NCBI GenBank assembly: GCA_050013255.1 | Contig: JBEKFP010000002.1 | Span: 192,001 to 256,000 of the forward strand | Origin: Candidatus Bathyarchaeia archaeon | GTDB lineage: Archaea; Thermoproteota; Bathyarchaeia; 40CM-2-53-6 | Direction of reading: 5' to 3' | Length of the DNA stretch: 64,000 nt | Shown: piece by piece, positions 3,311 to 50,921 of the stretch | Position numbering within the stretch: position 1 is the first letter of the stretch | How the letters are laid out: every line of letters starts with the position of its first letter | Notes under the pieces: model-generated | The model's input: the letters and a program-made list of their open reading frames with translations, nothing else | Told to the model about the DNA's origin: nothing | The model's database searches: none | Translations under genes and position numbers: made by a program

Positions 3311-3547
3311 GGCAGCTCCCTGGGCGTAACCCGCTCCCACCCCTGCTGTTTATGCTGCCACCACATTCACCGGTTGAAGTGGGACCGGTTCACCTTCCGC
3401 GTATCAATATCCAAACGACCAAGCCAAAACCCCACAGGATCCTCAGGAACCCGCCCCCCACACGCCGCACAAGACGCAACGAAGCAGGCTGGGACATGTT
3501 CGTTATCCCACGCGGGTAACCAAGTCCAAGTAATTAACAAGGACCGT

Positions 3548-3707
3548 TGGTAGCCCGGGGGAGATTCGAATTCGGGGTTGTGTCCACCTCTCCCGTCGGC
3601 AGGTCTCTCCTCTGGTGGAGGGATCCAGAGCCTTCTATTGGCTGATATCTGGCGCCAATGCTATGCATAGTCCCACGTGTGTGGATTGACCACTACACCA
3701 CCGGGCT
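3548..3707 (-). tRNA. tRNA-Gln(CUG) with four BHB introns at 21/22 (3667-3685), 29/30 (3633-3658), 37/38 (3605-3624), 53/54 (3571-3589); CCA encoded
   Basis: Removing the four segments gives the 76-nt cloverleaf AGCCCGG-TG-GTGT-AGTGGTCAA-GCAT-A-GCAGG-CT-CTG-GA-CCTGC-CGAC-GGGAG-TTCGAAT-CTCCC-CCGGGCT-A-CCA; all junctions fit BHB or relaxed BHB geometry. Confidence 0.92.
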
Positions 3708-3814
3708 ACCGGGTGCCACCCAGCTGAATTGGCTTATCTTAAGATTTCGTTGGATTAAGCAAAGCGTAGCATGTCCAAACTGCATTGAAGATAACTTAGA
3801 ATAGGTAGACCTGT

Positions 3815-50771: not shown

Positions 50772-50921
50772 GCCGGGGTTGGTCTTTGGCTCTATAGCCT
50801 ATGGCCACCGAAGGCCGAACGGTCCAGGCGGCGGGCTGCAGTAGACTAAAGCTTGCCGCAACCCGCAGTATAGAAAGCGAAAAAATCGCTGAGGTGGGTT
50901 CAATTCCCATCCCCGGCTCCA
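50772..50921 (+). tRNA. tRNA-Cys(GCA) with three BHB introns at 8/9 (50780-50812), 37/38 (50842-50860), 48/49 (50872-50893); CCA encoded
   Basis: Spliced 76-nt cloverleaf GCCGGGG-TG-GCC-GAACGGTCCA-GGC-G-GCGGG-CT-GCA-GA-CCCGC-AGTAT-GTGGG-TTCAATT-CCCAT-CCCCGGC-T-CCA; U73 discriminator; TATA-like TTTATTA at 50727. Confidence 0.9.

What the first reader, a model, noticed from the sequence alone, without database searches (positions are those of the whole stretch)
3548..3707. A single tRNA-Gln(CUG) gene interrupted by four BHB introns
Seen: the 160-nt gene contains four inserts (19, 26, 20, 19 nt) whose removal gives a canonical 76-nt Gln cloverleaf. Intron 21/22 has central helix GGUC/GACU, bulges AA|U and AU|G, inner stem CCAC/GUGG. 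Intron 29/30 has inner stem UGGC/GCCA and a relaxed AUAG/AUAG helix (two G-A pairs); its outer helix gains a pair only after intron 1 is removed, hinting at ordered splicing. Intron 37/38 has CUCU/GGAG and intron 53/54 has CGGG/CCCG with outer CGA/UCG. Known: archaeal EndA cuts BHB motifs, and to my knowledge the best-known multi-intron tRNAs (Thermoproteales) carry up to three. Inference: over half the precursor is intron, implying a broad-specificity endonuclease and active intron proliferation in this lineage. Standard annotation would probably miss this gene.
Basis: partly seen in the sequence, partly recalled or inferred. Interest (0 to 1): 0.9.

Follow-up and report, generated by a model that had tools for sequence, protein, structure and literature searches.

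The report
Four-intron glutamine tRNA gene, Bathyarchaeia
This is a real and apparently the only tRNA-Gln(CUG) gene of an uncultured peat/wetland archaeon (Bathyarchaeia), cut into five pieces by four short enzyme-spliced introns; it is well supported but is one more example of a kind of gene already reported in Asgard archaea.

Summary
The gene lies on the minus strand, window 3707-3548. Removing inserts of 19, 26, 20 and 19 nt gives a 76-nt RNA that ARAGORN calls tRNA-Gln(CUG). ARAGORN and the Rfam tRNA model both miss the unspliced gene.

- **Conservation:** orthologues in 16 other species of the genus carry four inserts. In the 13 with all four at these positions, exons are 100% identical and introns 69-86% identical, with compensatory changes in intron stems.
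- **Junctions:** relatives that lack single introns join the exons exactly at three of the four predicted junctions.
- **Motifs:** three introns have a full 4-bp bulge-helix-bulge core. Intron 2 is relaxed (2 of 4 pairs here, 3 of 4 in most relatives).
- **Enzymes:** the genome encodes a crenarchaeal-type alpha/beta splicing endonuclease with the broad-specificity loop, and RtcB ligase.
- **Not shown:** no RNA evidence was obtained.

The gene is not a record. Four-intron tRNA genes were published for Asgard archaea in 2024, and up to five in a 2026 preprint. My own census of this genome finds 43 tRNA genes with a mean of 2.4 introns, seven with four and tRNA-Trp with five.

The scan had already noted this same stretch in another window, and other four- and five-intron tRNAs in this genome. 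The ordered-splicing hint (intron 1 before 2) is not conserved; a dependence of intron 3 on intron 2 fits better.

The parts
3745..3751 (-). BRE-like purine-rich element (AACGAAA), -44 to -38 from tRNA position 1
   Evidence: Part of a block (AACGAAA-nn-TTAAGATA) that is near-invariant upstream of the gene in the 17 genus members. Its promoter function is inferred from position and from knowledge of archaeal promoters.
3735..3742 (-). TATA-box-like element (TTAAGATA), -35 to -28
   Evidence: Invariant in 17 of 17 genus orthologues while the flanks vary. The spacing predicts a transcription start a few nt upstream of position 1 (inference).
3686..3707 (-). Exon 1: acceptor 5' strand, U8, D-stem 5' strand, D-loop to A21 (22 nt)
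   Evidence: Invariant in 17 species.
3667..3685 (-). Intron 1, 19 nt, position 21/22 (D-loop), HBh' type: central helix 4/4, inner stem 4 bp, no outer helix
   Evidence: G039, G031, G023 and G024 orthologues lack it and read ...GGUCAA|GCAU... or the equivalent. The inner stem shows compensatory variants CCAC/GUGG, CCG/UGG, CCA/UGG and CUC/GAG.
3659..3666 (-). Exon 2, 8 nt: D-stem 3' strand, position 26, positions 27-29
   Evidence: Invariant in 17 species.
3633..3658 (-). Intron 2, 26 nt, position 29/30, relaxed BHB: central helix 2/4 here, 3/4 in 10 of the 16 parsed genus genes and 4/4 in G039, G031, G033 and G038; inner stem 4-5 bp; outer helix 2-3 bp
   Evidence: G029, G032 and G040 Gln(CUG) genes have no insert here. 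The last intron base varies (A/C/U), as expected for a bulge.
3625..3632 (-). Exon 3, 8 nt: positions 30-37, including anticodon CUG
   Evidence: Invariant.
3605..3624 (-). Intron 3, 20 nt, canonical position 37/38, hBHBh': central helix 4/4 with one G-U; the outer helix is the anticodon stem, complete (5 bp) only after intron 2 is removed
   Evidence: Present in all 27 Gln(CUG) genes examined.
3590..3604 (-). Exon 4, 15 nt: position 38, anticodon-stem 3' strand, 4-nt variable loop, T-stem 5' strand
   Evidence: Invariant except for a compensated G49-C65 to A49-U65 change in G022.
3571..3589 (-). Intron 4, 19 nt, position 53/54, hBH type: central helix 4/4, outer helix 3 bp, inner stem 0-4 bp
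   Evidence: G038, G023 and G024 orthologues read GGGAG|UUCGAAU without it. Three genus members instead have an intron at 59/60.
3548..3570 (-). Exon 5, 23 nt: T-loop, T-stem 3' strand, acceptor 3' strand, A73 and genomically encoded CCA (3550-3548)
   Evidence: CCA is encoded in all 20 orthologues first examined.
3528..3542 (-). T-rich stretch just downstream, a possible terminator
   Evidence: Sequence. A TTGTTAAT-like motif recurs in several orthologues. This is weak and inferred.

Best explanation
A functional, single-copy tRNA-Gln(CUG) gene of a peat/wetland Bathyarchaeia archaeon, transcribed from its own BRE/TATA promoter as a roughly 165-nt precursor. Four short introns (D-loop 21/22, anticodon stem 29/30, canonical 37/38, T-arm 53/54) are cut out at bulge-helix-bulge or relaxed BHB structures by the organism's crenarchaeal-type alpha2-beta2 splicing endonuclease, which carries the broad-specificity loop. 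The five exons (22, 8, 8, 15 and 23 nt) are joined by RtcB to give a normal 76-nt tRNA.

Exons 2 and 3 are only 8 nt long, so neighbouring motifs share nucleotides and cannot all form at once. Splicing must therefore pass through alternative conformers or a partial order; the best modelled dependence is intron 2 before intron 3.

Shown: gene anatomy, conservation, motif presence and enzyme genes. Inferred: transcription, cleavage, ligation and order.
For: 1. The spliced product is a canonical cloverleaf called tRNA-Gln(ctg).
2. A BHB-aware cloverleaf parser I wrote returns exactly these four introns and scores the gene 45.5. The true-gene range is 43-55. About 360 non-tRNA candidates, used as an internal null, reach at most about 38.
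3. Orthologues in 16 other species of the genus carry four inserts. In the 13 that parse with all four at these positions, exons are 100% identical and introns 69-86% identical.
4. Intron inner stems keep pairing through compensatory changes. The four intron bases that pair with the exon are conserved.
5. Relatives lacking single introns join the exons at the predicted junctions. G039, G031, G023 and G024 lack intron 1. G038, G023 and G024 lack intron 4. G029, G032 and G040 lack intron 2.
6. A BRE/TATA block at -44 to -28 is conserved in all 17 genus members.
7. No other Gln(CUG) gene was found by a regex scan for Gln-type acceptor ends or by my 43-gene census. The only other Gln gene found is Gln(UUG), with two introns.
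8. EndA alpha has the Tyr/His/Lys triad, and K43/K45 align with the CSL residues K44/R46 of A. pernix EndA. A second paralogue lacks the catalytic His. RtcB is present.
9. Heavy interruption is the rule in this genome: 42 of 43 genes in my census have introns.
Against: There is no RNA evidence. The two metatranscriptome runs laid on the locus show no spliced product, which is uninformative rather than negative.

Intron 2 in this species has only 2 of 4 central pairs.

Nearest-neighbour folding of the naked precursor favours the BHB core only for intron 1. The strict motifs cost about +4.5 kcal/mol (introns 1 and 4) to +10 kcal/mol (introns 2 and 3) relative to the ensemble.

tRNA-Gln(UUG) could in principle read CAG by wobble, so the gene need not be essential.

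The G013 orthologue has an aberrant T-loop region and scores only 33 with the parser.
Confidence: 0.92

Rival explanations
1. A decaying or hypomorphic gene. Intron 2 can no longer be removed in this species because its central helix has degenerated to 2 of 4 pairs. CAG codons would then be read by tRNA-Gln(UUG).
For: Central helix 2/4 in G000 and six relatives. The modelled cost of the intron-2 motif is the highest, +10.7 kcal/mol. Gln(UUG) is present. No spliced RNA was seen.
Against: The seven species with the 2/4 variant still have exons identical to the rest of the genus, while their introns have diverged from one another. The promoter is conserved. Two other genes in the census, Gly(GCC) and Ser(UGA), also carry 2/4 introns. 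CSL-bearing EndA is known to cut relaxed motifs (PMC3241643).
Confidence: 0.04
2. A different intron architecture: fewer or differently placed introns. For example, an expanded D-loop is retained in the mature RNA, or splice sites are shifted by a few bases.
For: A motif-free version of my parser placed two of the four boundaries a few bases away. The 29/30 junction is ambiguous by one A in this species.
Against: Relatives without intron 1, 2 or 4 show the exact junctions. In most species the last base of intron 2 is C, which fixes the 29/30 site. Only the stated boundaries give U54, a 7-nt anticodon loop with CUG, and cuts after the second bulge base at all eight sites.
Confidence: 0.03
3. 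Chance resemblance or assembly artefact: not a gene at all.
For: ARAGORN and Rfam report nothing here. The genome bin has 8.55% estimated contamination.
Against: The stretch is held in at least 22 independent peat/wetland DNA runs and is conserved in 16 other genomes. The joint occurrence of a perfect cloverleaf and BHB motifs is far beyond chance.
Confidence: 0.01

Closest known systems
Four- and five-intron tRNA genes of Asgard archaea (Freyarchaeia, Atabeyarchaeia, Jordiarchaeia): Valentin-Alvarado et al. 2024, Nat Commun (PMC11291895, Suppl. Data 4); Goswami et al. 2026 preprint (10.64898/2026.10.13.758758)
   Same: Short BHB-type introns at many non-canonical positions. Several per gene: four listed for Freyarchaeia Arg(TCT), Ile2(CAT) and Leu(GAG), and 'up to five' in the preprint. 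Most genes are interrupted, at about 2.2-2.4 per gene, and many are missed by standard software.
   Different: A different phylum-level lineage (Bathyarchaeia, Thermoproteota). In those Asgard genomes Gln(CUG) has 0-2 introns. Here the endonuclease is the crenarchaeal alpha/beta type with the CSL.
Multiple-intron tRNA genes of Thermoproteales (Pyrobaculum, Thermofilum, Caldivirga), as summarised in the tRNAscan-SE 2.0 paper (PMC8450103) and PMC4090602
   Same: The same broad lineage (Thermoproteota), the same enzyme type (alpha2-beta2 EndA with CSL), non-canonical positions including the D-loop and T-arm, and introns so close together that one must be removed before the next motif can form.
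   Different: Those genes are described with two or three introns and 0.84 introns per gene on average; 1.54 in P. calidifontis. This gene has four, and this genome averages 2.4. The organism lives in peat/wetland, not hot springs.
A. pernix alpha2-beta2 EndA with the Crenarchaea-specific loop (PDB 3P1Z/3AJV; Hirata et al. 2011, PMC3241643)
   Same: It is the best structural-database match of the alpha subunit (E 1.5e-38). The catalytic triad and both CSL basic residues are conserved, and there is a separate His-less paralogue.
   Different: Heterotetramer formation and substrate range are not tested for the Bathyarchaeia proteins. The second paralogue matches PDB endonucleases only weakly, none of the top hits being a beta-subunit chain.

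Membership tests
Archaeal elongator tRNA-Gln | Spliced sequence folds into a 7/4/5/5-bp cloverleaf with anticodon CUG in a 7-nt loop | tested here: met
   ARAGORN calls the spliced product tRNA-Gln(ctg), 76 nt. My parser scores it 45.5, within the true-gene range.
Archaeal elongator tRNA-Gln | Universal tRNA nucleotides (U8, A14, G18G19, U33, U54-U55-C56, A58, G53-C61) | tested here: met
   All are present in the spliced sequence printed.
Archaeal elongator tRNA-Gln | Same acceptor end (A1-U72 pair, A73) as the other Gln genes of the order | tested here: met
   The acceptor AGCCCGG...CCGGGCU-A is shared with Gln(UUG) in this genome and with an intronless Gln(UUG) in G039. That these are identity elements rests on my own knowledge.
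Archaeal elongator tRNA-Gln | Expressed, spliced and charged | not testable with these tools
   The only RNA runs holding any part of the locus gave no spliced product.
BHB (EndA-spliced) tRNA intron | [quoted passage not shown] | tested here: met
   Met by sequence for introns 1, 3 and 4 (4/4 pairs). For intron 2 see the next row.
BHB (EndA-spliced) tRNA intron | 4-bp central helix for intron 2 | tested here: not met
   2/4 pairs in this species, 3/4 in 10 of the 16 parsed genus genes, and 4/4 in G039, G031, G033 and G038. It qualifies only as a relaxed motif.
BHB (EndA-spliced) tRNA intron | At least one flanking helix (exon h or intron h') of 2 bp or more | tested here: met
   Intron 1: h' 4. 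Intron 2: h 2-3, h' 4. Intron 3: h 3-5, h' 2. Intron 4: h 3.
BHB (EndA-spliced) tRNA intron | The motif is a favoured fold of the precursor | tested here: inconclusive
   Only the intron 1 core is probable in the naked RNA (0.86). The others cost +4.5 to +10.7 kcal/mol. The model ignores protein binding.
BHB (EndA-spliced) tRNA intron | Cleavage by EndA and ligation by RtcB | not testable with these tools
   The genes for both are present.
alpha2-beta2 EndA with Crenarchaea-specific loop | Two paralogous subunits, one catalytic and one structural | tested here: met
   Two genes each carry both EndA Pfam domains. Alpha keeps Tyr, His and Lys. The second protein lacks the His in the alignment to M. 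jannaschii EndA.
alpha2-beta2 EndA with Crenarchaea-specific loop | CSL with the two basic residues (K44 and R46 of A. pernix) | tested here: met
   K43 and K45 align with K44 and R46. The role of these residues is from PMC3241643.
alpha2-beta2 EndA with Crenarchaea-specific loop | Heterotetramer assembly and broad substrate range | not tested
   No complex prediction or assay was run.

The most novel reading that the evidence does not exclude
The gene would be a natural test case for obligatory, hierarchical EndA splicing and for the limit of substrate relaxation.

With two 8-nt exons, the motifs of introns 2 and 3 use the same nucleotides (G30, G31, C32), so intron 2 must leave before intron 3 is presented properly. 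Intron 2 is itself cut despite only two Watson-Crick pairs in its central helix.

The fourth intron has been exchanged between positions 53/54 and 59/60 within one genus, possibly by gene conversion from the tRNA-Gln(UUG) paralogue. That would be a concrete route of intron transfer between tRNA genes, which the 2026 Asgard study looked for and did not find as a general route.
Probability: 0.3. Interest if true: 0.6.

Novelty: new member of a known kind. Interest (0 to 1): 0.42.

Why it matters
It shows that extreme tRNA-gene fragmentation is not confined to Thermoproteales and two Asgard classes. It also occurs in a widespread soil and peat Bathyarchaeia genus, at a mean of about 2.4 introns per gene.

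Routine annotation loses about half of the tRNA set in this genome. The Rfam model finds 19 genes against 43 in my census. That affects completeness scores and codon-usage inferences for such metagenome-assembled genomes.

The gene itself offers a compact substrate, with four sites of graded motif quality in 160 nt, for testing how far a CSL-bearing endonuclease tolerates relaxed motifs and whether splicing is ordered. The 53/54 versus 59/60 polymorphism gives a dated, within-genus case of intron turnover.

Tried and rejected
**RNA evidence.** One search for runs and one laying of reads gave no spliced product. The apparent 115-nt 'skip' in Nanopore metatranscriptome X24 is a foreign, intronless tRNA-Gln(UUG) that shares only the terminal exons. 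It is not a splice product of this gene. A second X24 contig covers only the upstream region and the first 29 nt. No conclusion about expression can be drawn.

**Standard finders.** ARAGORN in default mode and with -i, Rfam at gathering thresholds, and Rfam at E<=10 on 461 nt all report nothing at the gene.

**Another Gln(CUG)?** ARAGORN's 'tRNA-Gln(ctg)' at C1:1132371-1132501 is a mis-call of a two-intron gene with a GCGGCCG acceptor. My parser reads it as Gly(GCC).

**Motif-free parser.** It recovers four inserts in this gene but is too permissive genome-wide, because noise overlaps the four-intron genes. I replaced it with a BHB-restricted version.

**Folding.** Thermodynamic folding gave no support for a conserved 1-before-2 order. 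The cost of the intron 2 motif changes by -1.6, +0.1 and +1.3 kcal/mol in three species when intron 1 is removed.

**Gene conversion.** Intron-sequence identity between the 59/60 introns of Gln(CUG) and Gln(UUG) is only slightly higher within species (0.71-0.77) than between species, so it is not decisive.

**Neighbouring ORFs.** They give no relevant Pfam hits.

**Literature.** One full-text search for Bathyarchaeia tRNA introns found no dedicated study in the held library.

Full report
**Where and what.** The 160 bases at window 3548-3707 encode, on the minus strand, an RNA that begins AGCCCGG and ends CCGGGCU-A-CCA. ARAGORN and the Rfam library at gathering thresholds report no RNA gene anywhere in the 64-kb window. 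A permissive Rfam scan (E<=10) of 461 nt around the site gives no tRNA hit either. ARAGORN with intron search on the whole genome also misses it.

**Spliced product.**
- Intron 1: 3685-3667, 19 nt.
- Intron 2: 3658-3633, 26 nt.
- Intron 3: 3624-3605, 20 nt.
- Intron 4: 3589-3571, 19 nt.

That leaves exons of 22, 8, 8, 15 and 23 nt. The resulting 76-nt sequence is called tRNA-Gln(ctg) by ARAGORN and has all universal tRNA nucleotides and an encoded CCA. Introns make up 52.5% of the gene.

**Splicing motifs.**
- Intron 1 (D-loop, 21/22) has a 4/4 central helix GGUC/GACU, 3-nt bulges and a 4-bp inner stem, but no outer helix (HBh').
- Intron 2 (29/30) has a 4-bp inner stem and a 2-bp outer helix. 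Only the two middle pairs of AUAG/AUAG are Watson-Crick, so the motif is relaxed.
- Intron 3 (37/38) has CUCU/GGAG, with the anticodon stem as outer helix.
- Intron 4 (53/54) has CGGG/CCCG and the 3-bp outer helix CGA/UCG.

Only 21 of 4125 possible (start, length) pairs in the gene form a canonical-class BHB, and three of the four cloverleaf-dictated introns are among them.

A BHB-restricted, intron-aware cloverleaf parser that I wrote returns exactly these four introns without being told them.

**Comparative evidence.** The organism is an uncultured Bathyarchaeia archaeon. Close relatives are MAGs from the SPRUCE peatland and Danish soils. The stretch itself is held in at least 22 peat or wetland DNA runs.
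- A BLAST search of 40 related genomes found the orthologue in 16 other species of the same genus, each with four inserts.
- Across the 13 species that share all four positions, exons are 100% identical and introns 69-86% identical.
- The intron bases that pair with the exon are conserved, and the loops vary. The inner stems change by compensatory substitutions: CCAC/GUGG, CCG/UGG, CCA/UGG and CUC/GAG in intron 1, and UGGC/GCCA, UGGCG/CGCCA and UGGCG/UGUCA in intron 2.
- G022 has a compensated A49-U65 pair across the T-arm intron.
- Relatives outside the genus supply motif-free proof of three junctions. G039, G031, G023 and G024 lack intron 1. G038, G023 and G024 lack intron 4. G029, G032 and G040 lack intron 2. 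All 27 Gln(CUG) genes examined carry an intron at 37/38.
- Upstream, a block AACGAAA-nn-TTAAGATA at -44 to -28 is conserved in all 17 genus members while its flanks vary. It fits an archaeal BRE/TATA promoter dedicated to this gene.

**Copy number.** A regex scan of the genome for Gln-type acceptor ends found only one other tRNA gene. It is tRNA-Gln(UUG) at C1:1380967-1381081, with two introns (D-loop and 59/60). ARAGORN's 'Gln(ctg)' at C1:1132371 is a mis-call. On these searches the gene is the only source of a CUG-anticodon tRNA-Gln, although Gln(UUG) might read CAG by wobble.

**Enzymes.** Two EndA paralogues are present.
- The 190-aa protein best matches the catalytic alpha subunits of the A. 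pernix, S. tokodaii and P. aerophilum enzymes (E 1e-38 to 1e-28).
- It keeps the Tyr/His/Lys triad. It has K43 and K45 at the positions of K44 and R46 of the Crenarchaea-specific loop.
- Hirata et al. showed that this loop confers cleavage of D-loop and relaxed motifs (PMC3241643).
- The 187-aa paralogue lacks the catalytic His. This fits a structural beta subunit.
- RtcB is present, with an in-frame insert of about 480 codons that looks like an intein.

**Folding and order.**
- In the naked-RNA model, only the intron 1 core is favoured (probability 0.86).
- For intron 4 the T-stem competes. For intron 3 an intron-internal CUCC/GGAG hairpin competes. For intron 2 an extended inner hairpin competes.
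- Forcing each strict motif costs +4.6 (intron 1), +10.7 (intron 2), +10.1 (intron 3) and +4.5 (intron 4) kcal/mol.
- The pair lists show that intron 2's outer helix (G22-C32, C23-G31) and 3' bulge (G30) use nucleotides that intron 3 needs for its central and outer helices. The two full motifs therefore cannot coexist.
- Removing intron 2 lowers the cost of the intron 3 motif in all three species tested: 10.1 to 7.5, 9.1 to 2.6, and 11.4 to 7.6.
- Removing intron 1 changes the cost of the intron 2 motif by -1.6, +0.1 and +1.3, which is not a conserved effect.
- The tRNAscan-SE 2.0 paper already describes introns so close together that one must be removed before the next motif forms.

All of this is inference from a model that ignores the protein.

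**RNA evidence.** None was obtained. The only RNA runs holding parts of the stretch gave a foreign intronless Gln(UUG) and an upstream fragment.

**Context in the genome.** The parser was applied to 10,559 candidates with an acceptor stem plus CCA. Of the 441 with a T-arm score of 9 or more, 407 were parsed. It yields 43 non-overlapping tRNA genes, 42 of them scoring 43 or more. The remaining ~360 candidates reach at most about 38.
- Intron numbers are 0 (1 gene), 1 (8), 2 (16), 3 (10), 4 (7) and 5 (1), a mean of 2.4.
- The genes with four introns are Gln(CUG), Glu(CUC), Leu(CAG), Lys(UUU), a Met(CAU), Pro(CGG) and Pro(GGG). Trp(CCA) has five.
- Of the 103 introns, 68 have a 4/4 central helix, 32 have 3/4 and 3 have 2/4. 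The median length is 23 nt.
- The census is incomplete: no introns were allowed in acceptor stems, several isoacceptors are missing, and some anticodon calls are doubtful.
- Rfam's tRNA model finds only 19 genes in this genome.

Earlier notes of this scan had flagged several of these genes and this same stretch. My census reproduces them independently.

**Evolution of the gene.**
- Introns at 29/30 and 37/38 are shared with sister genera (G023 and G024, which have two introns) and with other families.
- 53/54 occurs in the genus and in four other genomes of the order. 21/22 occurs in the genus and in G029, G032 and G040.
- G033 and G028 have a different four-intron set (10/11, 29/30, 37/38, 53/54).
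- Within the genus, G015, G001 and G022 have the fourth intron at 59/60 with a perfect hBHBh' motif. That is the position and end motifs (AGG...CCCGAA) of the intron in their own Gln(UUG) genes. G022 also shares the A49-U65 T-stem variant between its two Gln genes.
- Gene conversion between isoacceptors is a plausible cause. Intron identities are not decisive.

**Novelty.** Four-intron tRNA genes are listed in Supplementary Data 4 of Valentin-Alvarado et al. 2024 for Freyarchaeia: Arg(TCT), Ile2(CAT) and Leu(GAG). A 2026 preprint reports up to five per gene and 2.2-2.4 per gene in two Asgard families. It gives 1.54 for P. calidifontis. The tRNAscan-SE 2.0 paper gives 0.84 for Thermoproteales.

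My one literature search found no study of tRNA introns in Bathyarchaeia. So the gene is a new member of a known kind. What seems unreported is the lineage and its intron load.

Noticed in passing
L015:1504-1666, L016:1503-1666, L017:1503-1675 (G015, G001, G022) versus window 3571-3589: Within one genus the fourth intron of tRNA-Gln(CUG) sits at 53/54 in 13 species and at 59/60 in three. The 59/60 introns resemble those of the same species' tRNA-Gln(UUG) genes. G022 shares an A49-U65 T-stem variant between both Gln genes, which suggests gene conversion between isoacceptors.
   Followed up: partly
L010:1503-1663 (G013): The G013 orthologue has an aberrant T-loop region: a duplicated CCCGAAU-like segment and 3 extra bases. 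It scores only 33 with the parser. It may be a recombinant between the 53/54 and 59/60 forms, a pseudogene or an assembly chimera. G013 also has two Gln(UUG) copies.
   Followed up: partly
window 3648-3658 (5' half of intron 2): The first 11 bases of intron 2 (UUGGCGCCAGA) are invariant in all 17 genus members except one (G011, a single U-to-A change), although the rest of the intron loop varies. CCAGA is complementary to anticodon-loop bases U33-G37 and also recurs in the intron 2 loop of sister genera (G023, G024). Its function is unknown.
   Followed up: partly
G000 C1:110968-113778 (minus strand): The RtcB ligase gene is one open frame of 1039 codons in which the Pfam match is split by about 480 in-frame codons, probably an intein.
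   Followed up: no
whole genome G000 (for example C2:632656-632881, C1:291271-291457, C3:122293-122469): My census finds 43 tRNA genes with a mean of 2.4 introns. Seven genes have four introns and tRNA-Trp(CCA) has five. Internal exons are as short as 6-7 nt. Only one gene, Arg(CCG) at C2:260003-260077, is uninterrupted.
   Followed up: yes
L018 (G033), L054 (G033), L056 (G031), L071 (G040), L073 (G032): 12-18 nt upstream of the tRNA-Gln 5' end: Several Gln genes outside the genus carry a near-copy of the acceptor 5' strand (AGCCCGG or AGCCUGG) in the leader. Most are genes with an intron at about 10/11. It may act as a stand-in pairing partner during processing.
   Followed up: no
window 50772-50918 (= C2:242772-242918): The census also recovers a three-intron tRNA-Cys(GCA) in this window, with introns after positions 8, 37 and 48.
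   Followed up: partly
RNA run X24, contig laid on window 3548-3570 and 3686-3707: A wetland Nanopore metatranscriptome holds an intronless tRNA-Gln(UUG) from another organism. Its first 22 and last 23 bases match exons 1 and 5 of this gene (one mismatch in exon 1).
   Followed up: yes
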